Source: a virus
Lineage: Duplodnaviria; Heunggongvirae; Uroviricota; Caudoviricetes
Length of the DNA stretch: 11,084 bases
Virus record (IMG/VR): IMGVR_UViG_2537562173_000005
Strand: one strand, 5' to 3'
Made by a program: the position numbers and the translations under genes. Positions 1 to 11,084 of this stretch are shown piece by piece. How positions within the stretch are numbered: the stretch's first letter is position 1; each line of letters starts with the position of its first letter. The notes under the pieces are model-generated. The model saw only the letters and a list, made by a program, of their open reading frames with translations. It made no database searches and had not been told where the DNA came from.

Positions 1-369
1 CTTATTAATATTCTGGATAAGTTCTCCACCTGGTATGACACGAATAGCGTGACGCTGGGCGGTGTCAAAATTCCGCACCTTTTCCCCGGTGATGATCTGA
101 AACTTCAGACCGCGCAGGATTCAGACAATGGATTTTCGGCGCTTGAACAGGCGCTGCTGCGGTATATCGCCGCCGGCCNNNNNTCTGAGCCGGGTTCGTA
201 AGCTGTGCTGACTGCGGGATCAGGTAAGGCCGAACCGGTCTCTGCATCCACAACCGCCCTGTTTGAACATTTCATGGCGAATCATTCACCGGCAGCGGTG
301 CGGGGTGGCGTGTCACAGACGTCAGCAGACGGTGATGCGGACGTGAAAATGCTCATGGCCATGTCATGA
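1..369 (+). CDS. 3' end of an upstream head gene, probably the scaffold/prohead protease (lambda C/Nu3 position); interrupted by an N gap at 179-183
   Basis: Frame 1 is open from 1 to the N run, and frame 1 is open again from 202 to the TGA at 367-369, 36 nt upstream of the D start. Position immediately before D matches lambda Nu3/C. Frame continuity across the gap is unknown and I see no clear sequence match. Confidence 0.3.
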
Positions 370-405
370 AGTCAGTGCTGACCATCAATATGAGGTTTTA
401 ACAAA

Positions 406-753
406 ATGGTGACGAAAACCATCACTGAACAGCGTGCGGAAGTACGTATTTTTGCCGGTAATGATCCGGCTCATACCGCCACAGGCAGCAGCGGGATTTC
501 TTCTGCAACACCGGCTCTGACGCCCCTGATGCTGGATGAAGCCACCGGGAAACTGGTGGTCTGGGATGGACAGAAAGCCGGTAGTGCGGTTGGCATACTG
601 GTACTGCCGCTTGAAGGCACAGAGACGGCGCTGACGTATTACAAGTCGGGGACCTTTGCGACGGAGGCAATCCGCTGGCCTGACAGTGTGGATGAACACA
701 AAAAGGCAAATGCCTTTGCCGGCACAGCCCTGAGTCACGCGGCGCTGCCGTAA
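406..753 (+). CDS. D: head decoration protein (lambda gpD family)
   Basis: 115-aa ORF with a GAGG ribosome-binding site about 10 nt upstream. Shares motifs with lambda gpD (DPAHTAT, TPLMLD, KLV.WDG, AVGIL, YKSGTF, AFAGTA) but is clearly diverged. Confidence 0.9.
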   Translation: MVTKTITEQRAEVRIFAGNDPAHTATGSSGISSATPALTPLMLDEATGKLVVWDGQKAGSAVGILVLPLEGTETALTYYKSGTFATEAIRWPDSVDEHKKANAFAGTALSHAALP

Positions 754-810
754 CACGTTATCAGGCCACCATGGTGACCTGACTGATTTCTGAATGAAAG
801 GAACTGATTT

Positions 811-1482
811 ATGGGATTGTTTACGACCCGCCAGTTACTCGGTTATACCGAACAAAAAGTGAAATTCCGTGCGCTGTTTCTGGAGCTGTTTTTCCGCCGT
901 ACGGTGAATTTCCACACCGAAGAGGTGATGCTGGACAAAATTACCGGAAAAACGCCGGTGGCGGCCTATGTCTCCCCGGTTGTTGAAGGAAAAGTGCTTC
1001 GCCATCGCGGTGGTGAAACCCGCGTGTTACGTCCGGGCTACGTCAAGCCGAAACACGAATTTAATTACCAGCAGGCGGTTGAGCGCCTTCCTGGTGAAGA
1101 TCCGGCTCAGCTGAACGACCCGGCCTACCGTCGTCTGCGTATCATTACCGATAACCTCAAACAGGAAGAGCACGCCATTGTCCAGGTGGAAGAAATGCAG
1201 GCGGTGAATGCCGTGCTGTATGGCAAATACACCATGGAAGGGGAGCAGTTTGATACTGTCGAGGTGGATTTCGGGCGCTCTGAAGGAAATAACATTGAGC
1301 AGGCTGACGGTAAAAAATGGTCTGAGCAGGACCGTGATACGTTTGATCCGACGCATGATATTGACCTCTACTGCGATCAGGCCAGCGGCCTTGTGAATAT
1401 CGCCATTATGGACGGTACGGTCTGGCGTCTGCTGAATGGCTATGTCGGGGAGTGCTGCGGATATTGCTCAACGTGTGTCTGA
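811..1482 (+). pseudogene. E: major capsid protein (lambda gpE family), C-terminally truncated
   Basis: The first ~210 aa align with lambda gpE (QLL...FLRLFFR, YVSP, PGYVKPKHE, DPAYRR.RII, IAQVEEMQAV.AVL.GKYTM.GE.FD.VEVD.GRSE.NNI, VNI). Homology then stops and the ORF ends after 13 unrelated residues; lambda gpE is 341 aa. Confidence 0.8.
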
Positions 1483-1756
1483 GTGGGAAGAGGAGCTTGC
1501 TGTTTCCCCGGAGGGCATTATGCACTCTGATGAGAGCGGGGCTGATCAAAATCACACAGACGATGGTGAGCAGTTGAACAACACGGATGCTCCGGATGAT
1601 GTTAAAGCCGTCCGGGTACGGAAGTGCCTGCAAGTAATGGGGTATTGCCCGGAGACAGGTCGTCCCGTTGAGCTGGCGTTACGGGGTATGCGTGTTCTGG
1701 TGCCATCATCACTGGCAACGGCCATGATACAGCACGGAACGGCTGAATATGCGTGA
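1436..1756 (+). CDS. FI: FI-like head protein (DNA packaging / head-tail joining accessory), apparently missing its N-terminus
   Basis: Acidic 106-aa ORF between E and FII, the FI position; the segment RVSEWEEEL resembles lambda gpFI RVAELKEEL. Its stop (1754-1756) overlaps the FII start. About 25 N-terminal residues seem to be absent and the start codon lies in the E/FI junction. Confidence 0.55.
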   Translation: MAMSGSAADIAQRVSEWEEELAVSPEGIMHSDESGADQNHTDDGEQLNNTDAPDDVKAVRVRKCLQVMGYCPETGRPVELALRGMRVLVPSSLATAMIQHGTAEYA

Positions 1757-2102
1757 TTTTCAGAATGCCTTTGATGCTGCCCTCGCCGGGGTAGACAGTA
1801 CGATCGTTGAAGTGATGGGGCTCTGTGCGCAGTTCACCTCGGGGGCACAGTGTGGCAGCGAAGTTCAGGGGGTTTTTGATGATCCGGAGTCGCTGGGGTT
1901 TGCCGGTGGCGGGGTCCGTATTGAAGGAAGCAGCCCGTCATTATTTGTGCGGACGGATACGGTTCGTGCCGTGCGGCGTGGTGACACGCTGACCATTAAT
2001 GGTGAGATATTCTGGGTGGATCGTGTTTCTCCGGATGACGGGGGCAGCTGTTATCTCTGGCTCAACCGTGGTCAACCACCCGCAGTTAACCGGCGACGAT
2101 AA
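1749..2102 (+). CDS. FII: head-tail connector protein (lambda gpFII family)
   Basis: 117 aa, same length as lambda gpFII, with conserved motifs (GVFDDPE, GVR.EGSSPSLFVRTD, RRGDTLTI, FWVDRVSPDDGGSC.LWL.RG.PPAVNRRR). Confidence 0.9.
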   Translation: MRDFQNAFDAALAGVDSTIVEVMGLCAQFTSGAQCGSEVQGVFDDPESLGFAGGGVRIEGSSPSLFVRTDTVRAVRRGDTLTINGEIFWVDRVSPDDGGSCYLWLNRGQPPAVNRRR

Positions 2103-4688: not shown

Positions 4689-6828
4689 TCTTGTTATTGA
4701 CCTGAGTCTGGATGCTGTCCGTTTCGATGAGCAGATGAGCCGGGTAAGGCGTCATTTTTCAGGTCTGGATACCGACGCCAGAAAAACCGCCAGTGCTGTT
4801 GAACAGGGCCTGAGCCGCCAGGCGCTGGCTGCACAAAAAGCCGGGATTTCCGTCGGGCAGTATAAAGCGGCCATGCGAACCCTGCCCGCACAGTTTACGG
4901 ATATCGCCACGCAGCTTGCCGGTGGTCAGAATCCCTGGTTGATCCTGCTGCAACAGGGCGGTCAGGTGAAGGACTCCTTCGGCGGGATGATCCCCATGTT
5001 CAGGGGGCTTGCCGGTGCGATCACCCTGCCGATGGTCGGGGTCACCTCGCTGGCGGTGGCGACAGGTGCGCTGGCGTACGCCTGGTACCAGGGCGACGCC
5101 ACGCTTTCAGAATTTAATAAAACGCTGGTCCTTTCCGGCAATCAGGCCGGACTGACTGCCGATCGTATGCTGACGCTCTCAAGAGCCGGGCAGGCAGCAG
5201 GGCTGACGTTTAACCAGGCGAGAGAGTCACTGGCAGCCCTGGTGAATGCCGGTGTGCGTGGTGGTGAACAGTTTGATGCCATCAACCAGAGTGTCGCGCG
5301 TTTTGCGTCTGCATCCGGTGTGGAGGTGGATAAAGTCGCTGAAGCCTTCGGGAAGCTGACCACTGACCCGACGTCGGGACTGATGGCGATGGCGCGCCAG
5401 TTCCGTAACGTGACGGCAGAGCAGATTGCGTATGTTGCACAGCTGCAGCGTTCCGGAGACGAGGCCGGGGCATTGCAGGCGGCGAACGATATCGCCACGA
5501 AAGGCTTTGATGAGCAGACCCGTCGCCTGAAAGAAAACATGGGAACACTGGAGACCTGGGCGGATAAAACAGGGAAGGCATTCAAATCGATGTGGGATGC
5601 CATTCTGGATATCGGTCGTCCGGAATCCTCAGCGGATATGCTCGCCAGTGCGCAGAAGGCATTTGATGAGGCGGATAAAAAATGGCAGTGGTACCAGAGC
5701 CGGAGCCAGCGCCGGGGAAAGACCTCCTCTTTTCGTGCGAACCTTCAGGGGGCATGGGATGACCGGGAAAATGCCCGTCTGGGTCTGGCAGCGGCCACGC
5801 TGCAGTCGGATATGGAAAAAGCCGGTGAACTGGCGGCAAGGGACAGGGCTGAGCGTGAGTCGTCACAGCTGAAGTATACCGGAGAGGCGCAGAAGGCGTA
5901 TGAGCGCCTGCAGACGCCGCTGGATAAATATACCGCCCGTCAGAAAGAGCTGAATAAGGCCCTGAAAGACGGAAAAATCCTGCAGGCGGATTACAACACG
6001 CTGATGGCGTCGGCAAAAAAGGATTATGAATCGACGCTGAAAAAGCCGTCAGGTGTGAAGGTGTCTGCCGGTGAGCGCCAGGAAGACCGGGCGCATGCAG
6101 CCCTGCTGGCGCTTGAAACCGAGCTCAGGACGCTGGAAAAACACAGCGGTATGAATGAGAAAATCAGCCAGCAGCGCCGGGATTTATGGGAATCTGAAAG
6201 TCAGTATGTGGTCCTGAAAGAGGCCGCCACGAAACGGCAGTTATCTGAGCAGGAAAAATCCCTGCTGGCTCATGAGAAAGAGACGCTGGAGTACAAACGC
6301 CAGCTGGCTGAGCTGGGAGACAAGATTGAACACCAGAAGCGGCTGAATGAGCTGGCACAGCAGGCGGCGCGGTTTGAACAGCAGCAAAGCGCGAAGCAGG
6401 CGGCAATCAGCGCAAAAGCCCGCGGCCTCACCGACCGTCAGGCGCAGCGGGAGTCGGAAGAGCAGCGCCTTCGTGAGGTGTACGGTGATAATCCGGCTGC
6501 GCTGGCGAAGGCCACATCGGCACTGAAGAACACCTGGTCTGCGGAGGAGCAGCTTCGTGGAAGCTGGATGGCCGGGATGAAGTCCGGCTGGGGAGAGTGG
6601 GCGGAAAGTGCGACGGACAGTTTTTCGCAGGTTAAAAGTGTGGCCACGCAGACCTTTGACGGTATTGCACAGAATATGGCGGCGATGCTGACCGGCAGCG
6701 AACAGAACTGGCGGGGATTCACCCGTTCCGTGCTGTCCATGATGACAGAAATTCTGCTTAAGCAGGCAATGGTGGGGATTGTCGGGAGTATCGGCAGCGC
6801 CATTGGCGGGGGGGGCGCCTCCGCCTGA
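4669..6828 (+). CDS. H: tail tape measure protein (lambda gpH family), N-terminal 719 aa; reading frame ends prematurely at a G homopolymer
   Basis: Long Ala/Gln/Glu-rich ORF; N-terminus PVGDLV.DLSLDA.RFDEQM.RVRRHFSG and many internal blocks match lambda gpH. It ends ...IGSAIGGGGASA* at TGA 6826-6828, directly after a G8 run. Confidence 0.9.
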   Translation: MSQPVGDLVIDLSLDAVRFDEQMSRVRRHFSGLDTDARKTASAVEQGLSRQALAAQKAGISVGQYKAAMRTLPAQFTDIATQLAGGQNPWLILLQQGGQVKDSFGGMIPMFRGLAGAITLPMVGVTSLAVATGALAYAWYQGDATLSEFNKTLVLSGNQAGLTADRMLTLSRAGQAAGLTFNQARESLAALVNAGVRGGEQFDAINQSVARFASASGVEVDKVAEAFGKLTTDPTSGLMAMARQFRNVTAEQIAYVAQLQRSGDEAGALQAANDIATKGFDEQTRRLKENMGTLETWADKTGKAFKSMWDAILDIGRPESSADMLASAQKAFDEADKKWQWYQSRSQRRGKTSSFRANLQGAWDDRENARLGLAAATLQSDMEKAGELAARDRAERESSQLKYTGEAQKAYERLQTPLDKYTARQKELNKALKDGKILQADYNTLMASAKKDYESTLKKPSGVKVSAGERQEDRAHAALLALETELRTLEKHSGMNEKISQQRRDLWESESQYVVLKEAATKRQLSEQEKSLLAHEKETLEYKRQLAELGDKIEHQKRLNELAQQAARFEQQQSAKQAAISAKARGLTDRQAQRESEEQRLREVYGDNPAALAKATSALKNTWSAEEQLRGSWMAGMKSGWGEWAESATDSFSQVKSVATQTFDGIAQNMAAMLTGSEQNWRGFTRSVLSMMTEILLKQAMVGIVGSIGSAIGGGGASA

Positions 6829-7234
6829 GGGGGGTACAGCCATTCAGGCCGCCGCGGCGAAATTCCATTTTGCAACCGGAGGATTTACGGGAACCGGCGG
6901 CAAATATGAGCCAGCGGGGATTGTTCACCGTGGTGAATTTGTCTTCACAAAGGAGGCAACCAGCCGGATTGGCGTGGGGAATCTCTATCGGCTGATGCGC
7001 GGCTATGCCACCGGTGGTTATGTCGGTACACCGGGCAGTCTGGCTGACAGCCGGTCGCAGGCGTCCGGGACGTTTGAGCAGAATAACCATGTGGTGATTA
7101 ACAACGACGGCACGAACGGGCAGATAGGTCCGGCTGCTCTGAAGGCGGTGTATGACATGGCCCGCAAGGGTGCCCGTGATGAAATTCAGACACAGATGCG
7201 TGATGGTGGACTGTTCTCCGGAGGTGGACGATGA
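6779..7234 (+). CDS. H: C-terminal part of tape measure protein H in the +1 frame (frameshifted continuation)
   Basis: From about 6830, frame 2 reads GGTAIQAAAAKFHFATGGFTGTGGKYEPAGIVHRGEFVFTKEATSRIGVGNLYRLMRGYATGGYVGTPGS...RDGGLFSGGGR, matching the lambda gpH C-terminus. The ATG at 6779 is probably not a real start. Confidence 0.8.
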   Translation: MSGVSAAPLAGGAPPPEGGTAIQAAAAKFHFATGGFTGTGGKYEPAGIVHRGEFVFTKEATSRIGVGNLYRLMRGYATGGYVGTPGSLADSRSQASGTFEQNNHVVINNDGTNGQIGPAALKAVYDMARKGARDEIQTQMRDGGLFSGGGR

Positions 7235-7560: not shown

Positions 7561-8258
7561 TGCAGGATATCCGGCAGGAAACACTGAATGAATGCACCCG
7601 TGCGGAGCAGTCGGCCAGCGTGGTGCTCTGGGAAATCGATCTGACAGAGGTCGGTGGAGAACGTTATTTTTTCTGTAATGAGCAGAACGAAAAAGGTGAG
7701 CCGGTCACCTGGCAGGGGAGGCAGTATCAGGCGTATCCCATTCAGGGGAGCGGTTTTGAACTGAATGGCAAAGGCACCAGTACGCGGCCCACGCTGGCAG
7801 TCTCTAACCTGTACGGCATGGTCACCGGTATGGTGGAAGATATGCAGAGTCTGGTCGGCGGAACGGTGGTCCGGCGTAAGGTTTACGCCCGTTTTCTGGA
7901 TGCGGTGAACTTCGTCAACGGAAACAGAGACGCCGATCCGGAGCAGGAGGTGATCAGCCGCTGGCGCATCGAGCAGTGCAGCGAACTGAGTGCGGTCAGT
8001 GCCTCCTTTGTACTGTCCACACCGACGGAAACGGATGGTGCCGTTTTTCCGGGGCGCATCATGCTGGCTAATACCTGCACCTGGACCTATCGCGGTGATG
8101 AGTGCGGTTATCACGGTCCGGCAGTCGCGGATGAATATGACCAGCCGACGTCCGATATCACGAAGGATAAATGCAGCAAATGCCTGAGCGGCTGTAAGTT
8201 TCGCAATAACGTCGGCAACTTTGGCGGCTTCCTTTCCATTAACAAACTTTCGCAGTAA
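7560..8258 (+). CDS. L: tail tip assembly protein (lambda gpL family), cysteine cluster near C-terminus
   Basis: 232 aa, same length as lambda gpL. C-terminal region contains CTWTYRGDECGY and CSKCLSGC, consistent with the cysteine-rich metal/Fe-S site described for gpL. Start overlaps the M stop by 1 nt. Confidence 0.92.
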   Translation: MQDIRQETLNECTRAEQSASVVLWEIDLTEVGGERYFFCNEQNEKGEPVTWQGRQYQAYPIQGSGFELNGKGTSTRPTLAVSNLYGMVTGMVEDMQSLVGGTVVRRKVYARFLDAVNFVNGNRDADPEQEVISRWRIEQCSELSAVSASFVLSTPTETDGAVFPGRIMLANTCTWTYRGDECGYHGPAVADEYDQPTSDITKDKCSKCLSGCKFRNNVGNFGGFLSINKLSQ

Positions 8259-8262
8259 TCCC

Positions 8263-9006
8263 ATGACAGAGACAGAATCAGCGATTCTGGCGCACGCCCG
8301 GCGATGTGCGCCAGCGGAGTCGTGCGGCTTCGTGGTAAGCACGCCGGAGGGGGAAAGATATTTCCCCTGCGTGAATATCTCCGGTGAGCCGGAGGCGTAT
8401 TTCCGGATGGCTCCGGAGGACTGGCTGCAGGCAGAGATGCAGGGTGAGATTGTGGCGCTGGTCCACAGTCATCCCGGTGGTCTGCCCTGGCTGAGTGAGG
8501 CCGACCGGCGGCTGCAGGTGCAGAGCGATTTGCCGTGGTGGCTGGTCTGCCGGGGGGCGATTCACAAGTTCCGCTGTGTGCCGCATCTCACCGGGCGGCG
8601 CTTTGAGTACGGGGTGACAGACTGTTACACACTGTTCCGGGATGCTTACCATCTGGCGGGGATTGAGATGCCGGATTTTCATCGCGGGGATGACTGGTGG
8701 CGTCACGGTCAGAATCTCTATCTTGACAATATGGAGGCTACTGGTTTTTACCGTGTCGCACTGACAGAGGCGCAGCCGGGCGATGTGCTGCTGTGCTGTT
8801 TTGGTTCATCGGTGCCGAATCACGCCGCCATTTACTGCGGCGACGGTGAGCTGCTGCACCATATTCCTGAACAACTGAGTAAACGAGAGAGGTATACCGA
8901 CAAATGGCAGCGACGCACACACTCCCTCTGGCGTCACCGGGAATGGCACGCATCTGCCTTTACGGGGATTTGCAACGATTTGGCCGCCGCATCGACCTTC
9001 GTGTGA
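8263..9006 (+). CDS. K: tail tip assembly protein (lambda gpK family) with MPN/JAMM-like and NlpC/P60-like regions
   Basis: MTETESAILAHARRCAPAESCGFVVSTPEGERYFPCVNISGEPEAYFRM matches the lambda gpK N-terminus. HSHPGG...SEAD fits a JAMM-type motif and DCYTLF...H fits an NlpC/P60-type Cys/His pattern. The ORF track starts at an in-frame ATG at 8221 that overlaps L; the ATG at 8263, just after the L stop, is more likely. Confidence 0.88.
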   Translation: MTETESAILAHARRCAPAESCGFVVSTPEGERYFPCVNISGEPEAYFRMAPEDWLQAEMQGEIVALVHSHPGGLPWLSEADRRLQVQSDLPWWLVCRGAIHKFRCVPHLTGRRFEYGVTDCYTLFRDAYHLAGIEMPDFHRGDDWWRHGQNLYLDNMEATGFYRVALTEAQPGDVLLCCFGSSVPNHAAIYCGDGELLHHIPEQLSKRERYTDKWQRRTHSLWRHREWHASAFTGICNDLAAASTFV

Positions 9007-9545
9007 AAACGGGGGCTGAAGCCATCCGGGCACTGGCCACACAGCTCCCGGCGTTTCGTCAGAAACTGAGCGATGGCTGGTATCAGGTACGGATTGCCGG
9101 GCGGGATGCAGGAGAAACCGAATTATCATCCCGTCTTAATGAGCCGCTGGCAAATGGTGCCGTGATCCACATCGTGCCGCGTCTTGCGGGAGCAAAAAGT
9201 GGCGGTGTGTTTCAGGCGGTGCTGGGTGCGGCGTTGATTGCTACGGCAATCTGGATGCCGGGGATCAGTATCGCTTTCAGTGACATTCTCTTTTCAATGG
9301 GTGCGGCGATGACGCTTGGTGGTGTGGCGCAGATGCTGGCACCGAAAGCCAGAACTCCCCGTACACAGACAACGGATAACGGCAAACAGAACACCTATTT
9401 CTCCTCACTGGATAACATGGTTGCCCAGGGCAATGTTCTGCCGGTTCTGTACGGTGAAATGCGCGTGGGGTCACGTGTGGCATCTCAGGAGATCAGCACG
9501 GCAGATGAAGGGGATGGTGGTCAGGTTGTGGTAATTGGGCGGTAA
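8904..9545 (+). CDS. I: tail tip assembly protein (lambda gpI family)
   Basis: 213 aa. The N-terminal ~65 aa (MAATHTLPLASPGMARICLYGDLQRFGRRIDLRVKTGAEAIRALATQLPAFRQKLSDGWYQVRIAGRD) and the C-terminus (VLGGVAQMLAPKARTPR.QTTDNGKQNTYFSSLDNMVAQGNVLPVLYGEMRVGSRV.SQEISTADEGDGGQVVVIGR) are essentially identical to lambda gpI. GAGAGG ribosome-binding site upstream; overlaps the K 3' end in another frame, as in lambda. Confidence 0.93.
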   Translation: MAATHTLPLASPGMARICLYGDLQRFGRRIDLRVKTGAEAIRALATQLPAFRQKLSDGWYQVRIAGRDAGETELSSRLNEPLANGAVIHIVPRLAGAKSGGVFQAVLGAALIATAIWMPGISIAFSDILFSMGAAMTLGGVAQMLAPKARTPRTQTTDNGKQNTYFSSLDNMVAQGNVLPVLYGEMRVGSRVASQEISTADEGDGGQVVVIGR

Positions 9546-9551
9546 TATTAT

Positions 9552-9580
9552 TTTACTCATGTTCTAACTAATTTAATATT
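9552..9580 (+). promoter_or_regulatory. candidate sigma70-type promoter for the moron ORF
   Basis: TTTACT (9552-9557), a 17-nt spacer, then TAATAT (9575-9580), in an AT-rich block about 40 nt upstream of the lipoprotein ATG. Consensus match is only moderate, and GATAAT at 9594-9599 is an alternative -10. Sequence-only prediction. Confidence 0.25.
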
Positions 9581-9618
9581 TATATCGAACACTGATAATT
9601 ATTCTATTGGTTAGCTAT

Positions 9619-9957
9619 ATGAACAAAACGATTTTATTCTGCACGATTATTGCCTTAACAGGATGTAAATCTTTGGATTACGTAAAATCCGGAAAACCTG
9701 TAATGGAAGGTAATTCATTAAAAAATATTGATGAATTGTCAGGCTGCATATCCAGACAATGGGCTGGTAATGGAACACCTATAACATCCCTTCCTATTGA
9801 GAATGGGGTAAGCCTTTTAGTTCCACAGGCTATGGGGGGATATGATGTTGTGCTTGATATCAAAAAAGCAGGAAATGGCAGTAGTTTTACTCTTTATGAA
9901 CGTGTACCAGCATTAACGCCAAAAATTTTTGCTGATAGTGTTAATGCATGTAAATAA
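9619..9957 (+). CDS. predicted lipoprotein encoded by a moron inserted between tail genes I and J
   Basis: 112-aa ORF from ATG 9619. N-terminus MNKTILFCTIIALTGC is a classic type II signal peptide with lipobox L-T-G-C. The ORF and its flanks are visibly AT-rich compared with the GC-rich phage genes. The six-frame track starts at TTG 9607; the ATG is more plausible. The ribosome-binding site is weak. Confidence 0.7.
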   Translation: MNKTILFCTIIALTGCKSLDYVKSGKPVMEGNSLKNIDELSGCISRQWAGNGTPITSLPIENGVSLLVPQAMGGYDVVLDIKKAGNGSSFTLYERVPALTPKIFADSVNACK

Positions 9958-10023: not shown

Positions 10024-11084
10024 ATGGGTAAAGGAAGCAGTAAGGGGCATACCCCGCGCGAAGCGAGGGACAACCTGAAGTCCACGCAGCTGCTGAGTGT
10101 GATCGATGCCATCAGCGAAGGGCCGGGTGAAGGGCCGGCCCCCCGGACCTCAACNNNNNCGGGCCGGTGAGCAGGAGCAGACACCGCCGGAGGGATTTGA
10201 ATCCTCCGGCTCCGAGACGGTGCTGGGTACGGAAGTGAAATATGACACGCCGATCACCCGGACCATCACGTCGGCAAACATCGACCGTCTGCGCTTTACC
10301 TTCGGTGTGCAGGCACTGGTGGAAACCACCTCAAAGGGGGACAGGAATCCATCGGAAGTCCGCCTGCTGGTTCAGATCNNNNNATTCTGCAGGTGCCGTC
10401 GAACTATAACCCGCAGACGCGGCAATACAGCGGTATCTGGGACGGAACGTTTAAGCCAGCATACAGCAACAACATGGCCTGGTGTCTGTGGGATATGCTG
10501 ACCCATCCGCGCTACGGCATGGGGAAACGTCTTGGTGCGGCAGATGTGGATAAATGGGCGCTGTATGTCATCGGCCAGAATTGCGACCAGTCGGTGCCGG
10601 ATGGCTTTGGTGGCACGGAGCCGCGCATCACCTGTAATGCCTACCTGACCACACAGCGCAAGGCGTGGGATGTTCTCAGTGATTTCTGCTCGGCGATGCG
10701 CTGTATGCCGGTATGGAACGGGCAGACGCTGACATTCGTGCAGGACCGACCGTCGGATAAGGTGTGGACCTATAACCGCAGTAATGTGGTGATGCCGGAT
10801 GATGGTGCGCCGTTCCGCTACAGCTTCAGCGCCCTGAAAGACCGCCATAATGCTGTTGAGGTGAACTGGATTGACCCGGATAACGGCTGGGAGACGGCGA
10901 CAGAGCTTGTGGAGGACACGCAGGCCATTGCCCGTTACGGTCGTAACGTCACGAAGATGGATGCCTTTGGCTGTACCAGCCGGGGGCAGGCACACCGCGC
11001 CGGGCTGTGGCTGATTAAAACGGAACTGCTGGAGACGCAGACCGTGGATTTCAGCGTCGGCGCAGAAGGGCTTCGCCATGTACC
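10024..11084 (+). CDS. J: tail tip / central tail fibre protein (lambda gpJ family), 5' partial, with two internal N gaps
   Basis: Starts MGKGSSKGHTPREA.DNLKSTQLLSVIDAISEGP, and later AGEQEQTPPEGFESSGSETVLGTEVKYDTPITRTITSANIDRLRFTFGVQALVETTSKGDRNPSEVRLLVQI and ILQVPSNYNPQTRQYSGIWDGTFKPAYSNNMAWCLWDMLTHPRYGMGKRLGAADVDKWALYVIGQ, all essentially identical to lambda gpJ. GGAG/GAGG ribosome-binding site upstream. The gene runs past the window end; N runs at 10155-10159 and 10379-10383 break the apparent frame. Confidence 0.92.

What the first reader, a model, noticed from the sequence alone, without database searches (positions are those of the whole stretch)
1380..1500. Major capsid gene E truncated and joined to an N-terminally shortened FI: apparent ~0.5 kb deletion in the head module
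The E-like ORF matches lambda gpE for about 210 residues, then loses homology at about nt 1440 and terminates at 1482 (223 aa against 341 aa in lambda). Immediately overlapping, in another frame, an FI-like ORF begins whose homology to gpFI appears to start about 25 residues in. The simplest reading is a single deletion that removed the 3' third of E and the 5' end of FI. A phage with this lesion could not build capsids, so this would be a defective (cryptic) prophage, or one dependent on a helper, that still keeps an intact-looking tail module.
Basis: partly seen in the sequence, partly recalled or inferred. Interest (0 to 1): 0.6.

Follow-up and report, generated by a model that had tools for sequence, protein, structure and literature searches.

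The report
Capsid gene gap, probably misassembly
The 518-base gap that truncates the capsid gene E and the neighbouring FI gene is really in this sequence, but the sequence is an error-ridden 2011 short-read draft scaffold, so the gap is more likely an assembly fault than a real lesion, and it would be an ordinary one even if real.

Summary
Compared with intact relatives, exactly 518 nt are missing at window 1441|1442. E stops matching after codon 210 and ends in a 13-aa out-of-frame tail. FI lacks its first 23 codons.

The biological reading is doubtful. The window is the whole record AEYT01000020.1 of E. coli cloneA_i1 (ST95), an Illumina GAIIx draft from 2011. The same 11-kb scaffold has other faults:
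- Three NNNNN runs hide 1,835, 89 and 300 nt of missing sequence.
- A garbled 21-nt patch breaks the tape-measure gene.
- An 18-nt copy of gene Z sits beside one N run.
- 21 substitutions carry the allele of a second prophage found in close ST95 relatives.

The junction is absent from 5,426 complete E. coli genomes and from three contig collections. Close relatives keep this region intact.

One point favours a real deletion. The junction is clean and carries no Ns. The lost stretch is only 90.7% identical to the second prophage, so repeat collapse does not explain it.

My estimate is about 0.7 artefact and 0.27 genuine strain-specific deletion. The equivalent prophage in two relatives already has a frameshifted endolysin. 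PCR across the junction or long-read resequencing would settle it. Interest is low.

The parts
1..176 (+). Internal fragment of the portal gene (gpB-like). The contig starts inside the gene.
   Evidence: 100% identical to SF-088 and to APEC O1 copy 1 inside the annotated portal CDS.
177..201 (.). Scaffold gap 1. It consists of 2 non-matching bases, NNNNN (179-183) and 18 nt of foreign sequence. 1,835 nt of the relatives are missing here (portal 3' end and most of C/Nu3).
   Evidence: The 18 nt at 184-201 duplicate gene Z at 2153-2170.
202..369 (+). 3' end of the C/Nu3 gene (S49 peptidase/scaffold).
   Evidence: Alignment to the annotated SF-088 CDS.
406..753 (+). Head decoration gene D, complete (115 aa).
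   Evidence: PF02924 hit on record.
811..1441 (+). E', codons 1-210 plus one base. It is identical to the intact 342-aa major capsid protein over all 210 residues.
   Evidence: Pfam PF03864 positions 1-204 of 329.
1441..1442 (.). Junction where 518 nt are missing relative to all relatives. There is 1 nt of microhomology (T), no Ns, and both flanks are error-free.
   Evidence: A 44-nt query across the junction finds nothing in 5,426 complete E. coli genomes. Junction-spanning patterns of 42 nt and 30 nt find nothing in genome, viral or metagenome contigs.
1442..1482 (+). Out-of-frame tail of E' (13 aa plus stop), read from FI sequence.
1442..1756 (+). FI', codons 24-127 plus stop. It has lost its own start codon and ribosome-binding region.
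   Evidence: PF14000 positions 22-129 of 131, 26.4 bits against a cut-off of 27.
1749..2102 (+). FII head-tail joining gene, complete.
   Evidence: The identical protein sits next to a 342-aa E and a 127-aa FI in all 10 other contexts shown.
6812..6832 (+). Garbled patch in the tape-measure gene H. It has a net loss of 8 nt plus 5 substitutions, creates a TGA, and splits H into 719-aa and 151-aa ORFs.
   Evidence: The patch occurs in no complete E. coli genome and in neither prophage copy of APEC O1.
10139..10159 (.). Scaffold gap 2 in gene J. 89 nt of the relatives are replaced by 16 nt of unmatched sequence plus NNNNN.
10379..10383 (.). Scaffold gap 3 in gene J. 300 nt of the relatives are replaced by NNNNN.

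Best explanation
The 518-nt gap is most likely a fault of the draft assembly, not a lesion in the bacterium's DNA. The likely cause is a join made during scaffolding, gap closing or redundancy removal. The window is a small scaffold built from 2011 Illumina GAIIx paired-end reads. It covers the head-tail module of a lambda-like prophage ('copy 1'). In the close ST95 relatives examined (APEC O1, SF-088), copy 1 coexists with a second, related lambda-like prophage ('copy 2'). Scaffolding this two-copy family produced a patchwork: missing stretches, stray bases at piece ends, alleles from the other copy, and one unmarked garbled patch. The E-FI junction is probably one more unmarked fault. What is shown: the gap, its exact ends, the provenance of the contig, the other faults, and the uniqueness of the junction. 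What is inferred: that the join was made by software rather than by the cell.
For: (1) Provenance. The window equals the whole of AEYT01000020.1 from E. coli cloneA_i1. [quoted passage not shown] (2) All 30 best complete genomes align to the window in 5 pieces that span exactly 13,783 nt, so the window lacks the same four stretches in every comparison. (3) Three of those stretches are marked by NNNNN and flanked by unmatched bases. One flank is an 18-nt copy of gene Z. (4) An unmarked fault lies between the same two N runs as the junction: the 21-nt garbled patch in H, which is absent from all complete genomes and from both prophage copies. (5) 21 of the window's substitutions relative to copy 1 sit in blocks and all carry the copy-2 base. 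No complete genome has this mosaic; the best match over 7700-9600 is 99.4%. (6) The junction is absent from 5,426 complete E. coli genomes, from one genome per species in GTDB, from IMG/VR and from JGI metagenomes. The exact 223-aa product is on record on this contig only. (7) The region is structurally invariant in finished genomes. All 25 best hits span 2,239 nt. In an evenly spaced sample, 27 of 27 records at 93.6% identity or more match in one piece over 2,237-2,239 nt. All 10 contexts that encode the identical FII have a 342-aa E and a 127-aa FI. (8) Only 1 nt of microhomology lies at the join. From general knowledge, spontaneous RecA-independent deletions in E. coli usually use longer short repeats.
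Against: The junction differs in kind from the three marked gaps. It has no Ns and both flanks are perfect to the last base. A de Bruijn-graph contig can contain such a join only if reads span it. The missing stretch is not a repeat in close relatives: it is only 90.7% identical between copy 1 and copy 2 in APEC O1, the longest exact run is 93 nt, and 24% of 31-mers are shared. That is less similar than the retained E 5' part (93.5% identical, 39% shared). SF-088 copy 2 encodes the same E and FI proteins as APEC O1 copy 2. I therefore cannot name the mechanism of the misjoin. Allele blocks from copy 2 can also arise naturally: the finished APEC O1 genome has such a block at the 3' end of D. 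No reads were available.
Confidence: 0.7

Rival explanations
1. The deletion is real. A recent, strain-specific, homology-independent deletion in prophage copy 1 of cloneA_i1 removed E codons 211-342, the spacer and FI codons 1-23. The prophage then cannot make its HK97-fold capsid protein and is head-defective. This would be a further step in the decay of an element that is probably already cryptic.
For: The junction is clean and unmarked, with error-free flanks. The lost stretch is not a repeat, so the usual short-read failure mode does not apply. Truncated E alleles do occur on long contigs elsewhere, for example a 317-aa form on a 5.0-Mb contig and a 248-aa form on a 115-kb contig. The equivalent prophage in SF-088 and APEC O1 already has a frameshifted lysozyme gene, so selection on its head genes is probably relaxed.
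Against: The junction is unique among all collections searched. The region is structurally invariant in sampled finished genomes. The same scaffold holds at least four other faults, one of them unmarked. There is only 1 nt of microhomology.
Confidence: 0.27
2. The deletion existed only in part of the sequenced DNA, either as a subpopulation of cells or as a chimeric library fragment, and the assembler followed that minority path.
For: This would explain a clean, read-supported junction that no relative shares.
Against: There is no direct evidence. Assemblers normally discard low-coverage paths, and a minority path would compete with a well-covered intact path.
Confidence: 0.03

Closest known systems
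Prophage 'copy 1' of ST95 E. coli (APEC O1 NC_008563.1, about 1.338-1.372 Mb; SF-088 NZ_CP012635.1, about 2.664-2.690 Mb)
   Same: It has the same gene order (portal, C/Nu3, D, E, FI, FII, Z, U, V, G, T, H, M, L, K, I, small lipoprotein ORF, J). Identity to the window is 99.6-100% over all retained stretches.
   Different: The relatives have a 342-aa E, a 127-aa FI, an 857-aa tape measure, a complete portal, C and J, and 2,699 more bases over the same span (13,783 against 11,084 nt).
Phage lambda genes E (major capsid protein, PDB 7vi9) and FI (DNA-packaging protein)
   Same: The intact relative's E aligns end to end with lambda gpE (residues 1-341, E = 1e-132). Both belong to PF03864, and FI belongs to PF14000. 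Gene order is as in the lambda head module.
   Different: The window's E' stops at the equivalent of lambda residue 210 and lacks the C-terminal 132 residues. FI' lacks its N-terminal 23 residues and its own start.
Escherichia phages PhiR12_1, PhiR12_2, PhiR12_4 and PhiR12_5 (PV340549 and others) and phage 21
   Same: The D-E-FI-FII-Z region is 98.1% (PhiR12) and about 92% (phage 21) identical to the window. They are deposited as phage genomes with laboratory hosts.
   Different: All carry full-length E and FI and align to the window in two pieces around the same 518-nt gap.
Second lambda-like prophage of ST95 strains ('copy 2', APEC O1 1.189-1.221 Mb, next to sitABCD and carrying iss)
   Same: It has a related, complete head-tail module. 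Its E is 94.4% identical in protein to copy 1. It is the source of the allele blocks seen in the window.
   Different: Its FI is only 53% identical and its tail genes Z to H are about 79-82% identical at DNA level. Its J is annotated as frameshifted in APEC O1.

Membership tests
Lambda gpE-type major capsid protein (Pfam PF03864, HK97 fold) | Significant match to the family profile | tested here: met
   E' scores 127.9 bits against a cut-off of 22.9.
Lambda gpE-type major capsid protein (Pfam PF03864, HK97 fold) | Full-length domain (about 329 profile positions, about 341 aa) as in solved lambda capsids | tested here: not met
   E' covers profile positions 1-204 of 329. The intact relative covers 1-329 and aligns with 7vi9 over residues 1-341.
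gpFI DNA-packaging protein (Pfam PF14000) | Match above the curated cut-off over the whole profile | tested here: not met
   FI' scores 26.4 bits against a cut-off of 27 and covers positions 22-129 of 131. The intact relative scores 54 bits over 1-129. The retained 104 residues are identical to the relative's FI.
Deletion-inactivated (cryptic) prophage | Loss of essential gene sequence relative to intact relatives | tested here: met
   518 nt are missing at 1441|1442.
Deletion-inactivated (cryptic) prophage | The junction is confirmed by independent sequence (other isolates, other assemblies or reads) | tested here: not met
   No other occurrence in complete E. coli genomes, GTDB representatives, IMG/VR or JGI metagenomes. 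The product is on record on this contig only. Reads were not available.
Short-read assembly artefact | The source is an unfinished short-read scaffold of a multi-copy region | tested here: met
   The source is a GAIIx paired-end draft. ST95 relatives hold two related prophage modules.
Short-read assembly artefact | Other demonstrable faults in the same contig, including unmarked ones | tested here: met
   Three N5 gaps hide 1,835, 89 and 300 nt. There is also a stray 18-nt duplicate, a garbled H patch and copy-2 allele blocks.
Short-read assembly artefact | The missing stretch is a repeat that the assembler could collapse or mask | tested here: not met
   It is only 90.7% identical to copy 2 and shares 24% of 31-mers. 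The N5-marked gaps are 96.6-98.0% identical and share 49-61%.
Short-read assembly artefact | Reads contradict the join | not testable with these tools
   No read data were accessible.

The most novel reading that the evidence does not exclude
The deletion is real, and the head-defective copy-1 prophage is mobilised with capsid protein supplied in trans by the co-resident copy-2 prophage. Copy 2's E protein is 94.4% identical, so the two prophages would form a helper-dependent pair. A further stretch of this idea is that the head-gene losses at both gaps are real and mark the domestication of a lambda-type tail module.
Probability: 0.04. Interest if true: 0.35.

Novelty: not a real feature. Interest (0 to 1): 0.08.

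Why it matters
It matters mainly as a caution. Truncated phage genes in old short-read drafts should not be read as prophage decay without checking where the contig came from. This contig has been public since 2011, and the truncated protein (EHG01475.1) is in the protein databases. If the deletion were real, it would be one more inactivating lesion in a prophage whose equivalent in two relatives already has a frameshifted endolysin. That is a common and well-understood process, so little would change either way.

Tried and rejected
(1) Repeat collapse as the cause of the E-FI gap. I located the second ST95 prophage by querying with a divergent E variant from locus L015 and fetched both APEC O1 copies and SF-088 copy 2. 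The three N-marked gaps lie in the stretches most like copy 2. The 518-nt stretch does not, so this mechanism is rejected for the junction itself.

(2) A same-length 223-aa cluster member (P0013) as a possible second carrier of the deletion. It has a different C-terminus and is unrelated.

(3) The natural recombinant L015. It switches from copy-2-like to copy-1-identical sequence between reference positions 13620 and 13659, an interval that contains the left breakpoint. It has no matching right boundary, so I treat this as coincidence.

(4) Partial E proteins of 190-232 aa in other drafts as a sign of a common contig break at the left breakpoint. Their ends are scattered, so they are not informative.

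(5) GTDB representatives as a way to find copy 2. Only non-ST95 genomes were returned.

(6) A literature search for prophage coordinates in UTI89 was not useful.

(7) The source paper was read for the assembler used on strain i1. It is not stated.

Full report
**1. Is the observation there?**

Yes. The ORF list and the sequence show an E-like ORF at 811-1482 (223 aa) and an overlapping FI-like ORF at 1436-1756. Window 400-2120 matches 1,909 E. coli records. The best match, strain SF-088, is 100% identical, but always in two pieces that span 2,239 nt instead of 1,721.

A base-by-base scan against SF-088 places the left match through window 1441 and the right match from 1441. Exactly 518 nt are therefore missing, and a single shared T sits at the join. 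Base 1441 is the first base of E codon 211. The 210 residues before it are identical to the intact 342-aa protein. Because 518 mod 3 = 2, the frame then runs into FI sequence as YVGECCGYCSTCV*.

FI loses 69 nt, which is 23 codons, and resumes at Met24 at 1442. The ATG at 1436 is E-derived sequence that happens to be in frame.

In Pfam, E' covers positions 1-204 of 329 of PF03864. FI' covers positions 22-129 of 131 of PF14000 at 26.4 bits, just under the cut-off of 27. The intact proteins cover both profiles fully. The intact E aligns end to end with lambda gpE from the solved capsid 7vi9.

**2. Where the window comes from**

An exact look-up of the 223-aa product finds one contig in 153 billion gene positions. 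That contig is AEYT01000020.1 of GCA_000233675.2. It is 11,084 nt long and identical to the window, Ns included. The source names the product 'putative capsid protein of prophage [Escherichia coli cloneA_i1]'.

AEYT00000000 is the draft genome of strain i1 (clone A), an ST95 urinary isolate. [quoted passage not shown] No assembler is named (PMC3203180).

**3. The rest of the contig is faulty**

Against SF-088 the window aligns in five pieces. All 30 best complete genomes give the same five pieces, spanning exactly 13,783 nt. Besides the E-FI gap, the window shows the following:
- **First N run.** At 177-201 it lacks 1,835 nt (the portal 3' end and most of C/Nu3). That site holds NNNNN plus 18 nt that duplicate gene Z at 2153-2170.
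- **Second N run.** At 10139-10159, 89 nt of J are replaced by 16 unmatched bases plus NNNNN.
- **Third N run.** At 10379-10383, 300 nt of J are replaced by NNNNN.
- **Garbled patch in H.** At 6812-6832 there is an unmarked patch in the tape-measure gene with a net loss of 8 nt and five substitutions. It creates a stop codon and splits H into 719-aa and 151-aa ORFs. The patch is in no complete E. coli genome and in neither prophage copy of APEC O1.

**4. A second prophage and allele mixing**

The missing 518 nt occur in two places in ST95 genomes such as APEC O1, UTI89, IHE3034 and UM146. I found the second place by querying with a divergent E variant. It is a second lambda-like prophage, 'copy 2', at APEC O1 1.189-1.221 Mb, and it has a complete, related head-tail module. 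'Copy 1' is the window's counterpart, at 1.338-1.372 Mb.

Of the window's substitutions relative to copy 1, 21 lie in blocks (7991-8072, 8469-8502, 9437-9443 and 10165-10734), and every one carries the copy-2 base. No complete genome shows this mosaic; the best match over 7700-9600 is 99.4%. This looks like an assembler switching between the two copies. Natural gene conversion cannot be excluded, because the finished APEC O1 genome has a similar block at the 3' end of D.

**5. Does the repeat explain the E-FI gap?**

No. The table compares copy 1 with copy 2 in APEC O1, stretch by stretch.

| Stretch | Identity, copy 1 vs copy 2 | 31-mers shared |
|---|---|---|
| N-marked gap of 1,835 nt | 97.4% | 49% |
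| N-marked gap of 89 nt | 96.6% | 58% |
| N-marked gap of 300 nt | 98.0% | 61% |
| Small retained island, window 1-176 | 94.9% | 7% |
| Small retained island, window 10160-10378 | 95.4% | 24% |
| Missing 518 nt (E 3' end to FI 5' end) | 90.7% (longest exact run 93 nt) | 24% |
| Retained part upstream of the junction (window 202-1441: C/Nu3 3' end, D, E 5' part) | 93.5% | 39% |

The N-marked gaps behave as expected for repeat-induced gaps. The 518-nt stretch does not: it is less like copy 2 than the retained part just upstream of it. SF-088 copy 2 encodes the same E and FI proteins as APEC O1 copy 2, so the closest relative gives the same answer.

The junction also has no Ns and has perfect flanks. 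It therefore differs in kind from the marked gaps, and I cannot name the step that produced it.

**6. Uniqueness and base rate**

A 44-nt query across the junction finds nothing in 5,426 complete E. coli genomes. Exact junction-spanning patterns of 42 nt and 30 nt find nothing in one genome per GTDB species, in IMG/VR or in JGI metagenomes.

In finished genomes the D-E-FI-FII region is structurally constant:
- All 25 best hits span 2,239 nt.
- In an evenly spaced sample of the ranking, 27 of 27 records at 93.6% identity or more match in one piece over 2,237-2,239 nt.
- All 10 distinct contexts that encode the identical FII protein carry a 342-aa E and a 127-aa FI.

**7. Weighing**

- **For an artefact.** The source is an early short-read scaffold of a region that is two-copy in close ST95 relatives. 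Four other faults lie within 11 kb, and one of them is unmarked and sits between the same two N runs as the junction. The junction is unique. The region is invariant elsewhere. Only 1 nt of microhomology is present. From general knowledge, benchmarks of assemblers of that period reported tens of unmarked indel errors per bacterial genome, concentrated in repeats. Real deletions of 0.5 kb or more at this locus appear to be rare.
- **For a real deletion.** The junction is clean and unmarked, and the lost stretch is not a repeat. A graph-based contig needs reads that span such a join. A join made by a scaffolder, a gap closer or a redundancy filter does not.
- **Estimate.** About 0.70 artefact, 0.27 real strain-specific deletion, and 0.03 minority or chimeric template.

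**8. If it were real**

The prophage could not make a complete HK97-fold capsid protein. FI would lack its N-terminus and its own translation start, so no heads would come from this element's own genes.

In SF-088 and APEC O1 the equivalent prophage already has a frameshifted lysozyme gene, so it is probably cryptic anyway. The co-resident copy 2 encodes an E protein that is 94.4% identical and could in principle supply capsid protein. That idea is speculation.

**9. Comparison and novelty**

The element is an ordinary lambda-like head-tail module. It is 99.6-100% identical to a prophage widespread in ST95 and other E. coli, 98.1% identical to the PhiR12 phages and about 92% identical to phage 21. 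The truncated ORFs fail the full-length tests for PF03864 and PF14000 only because sequence is missing.

Nothing here is a new kind of system. I file it as probably not a real feature. PCR across the site or long-read resequencing of cloneA_i1 would decide.

Noticed in passing
window 179-183, 10155-10159, 10379-10383: Each NNNNN run stands for much more missing sequence (1,835 nt, 89 nt and 300 nt in the relatives). It is a scaffold-gap placeholder, not five unknown bases. Gene calls that read across these runs are meaningless.
   Followed up: yes
window 184-201 and 2153-2170: The 18 nt to the right of the first N run (TCTGAGCCGGGTTCGTAA) are an exact copy of a stretch of tail gene Z, 2 kb downstream. 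At this position they match nothing in the relatives.
   Followed up: partly
window 6812-6832: An unmarked garbled patch in the tape-measure gene (net loss of 8 nt, five substitutions, new TGA) splits H into 719-aa and 151-aa ORFs. It is absent from all 5,426 complete E. coli genomes.
   Followed up: yes
window 7991-8072, 8469-8502, 9437-9443, 10165-10734: 21 substitutions in blocks all carry the allele of the second ST95 prophage (APEC O1 1.189-1.221 Mb). No finished genome has this mosaic. The cause is either assembler path switching or gene conversion between prophages.
   Followed up: partly
window 651-726 (3' end of D), compared with L022 (APEC O1 copy 1): The finished APEC O1 genome carries copy-2 alleles at eight sites here, while SF-088 and the window do not. 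Natural gene conversion between the two co-resident prophages therefore does occur.
   Followed up: no
window 9607-9957: A 116-aa ORF with a lipoprotein-type signal (LTGC) lies between tail genes I and J. It has no Pfam match and is annotated as hypothetical in relatives. It looks like a moron-type insert.
   Followed up: partly
L003 21334-21868 (SF-088) and L022 7170-7704 (APEC O1): The lysozyme gene of the equivalent prophage is annotated as frameshifted in both finished relatives, so this prophage lineage is probably already defective for lysis.
   Followed up: no
L015 (GCA_000461495.1 KE702475.1), E gene: This is a natural hybrid prophage. It is copy-2-like up to reference position 13620 and identical to copy 1 from there on. 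The crossover interval (13621-13658) happens to contain the window's left breakpoint.
   Followed up: partly
L011 and L012 (GCA_900449515.1, 2.05 Mb and 2.53 Mb): One chromosome holds two copies of this head-tail module. They show the same mismatch positions relative to the reference across the E-FI region, which shows how readily this module becomes a within-genome repeat.
   Followed up: no
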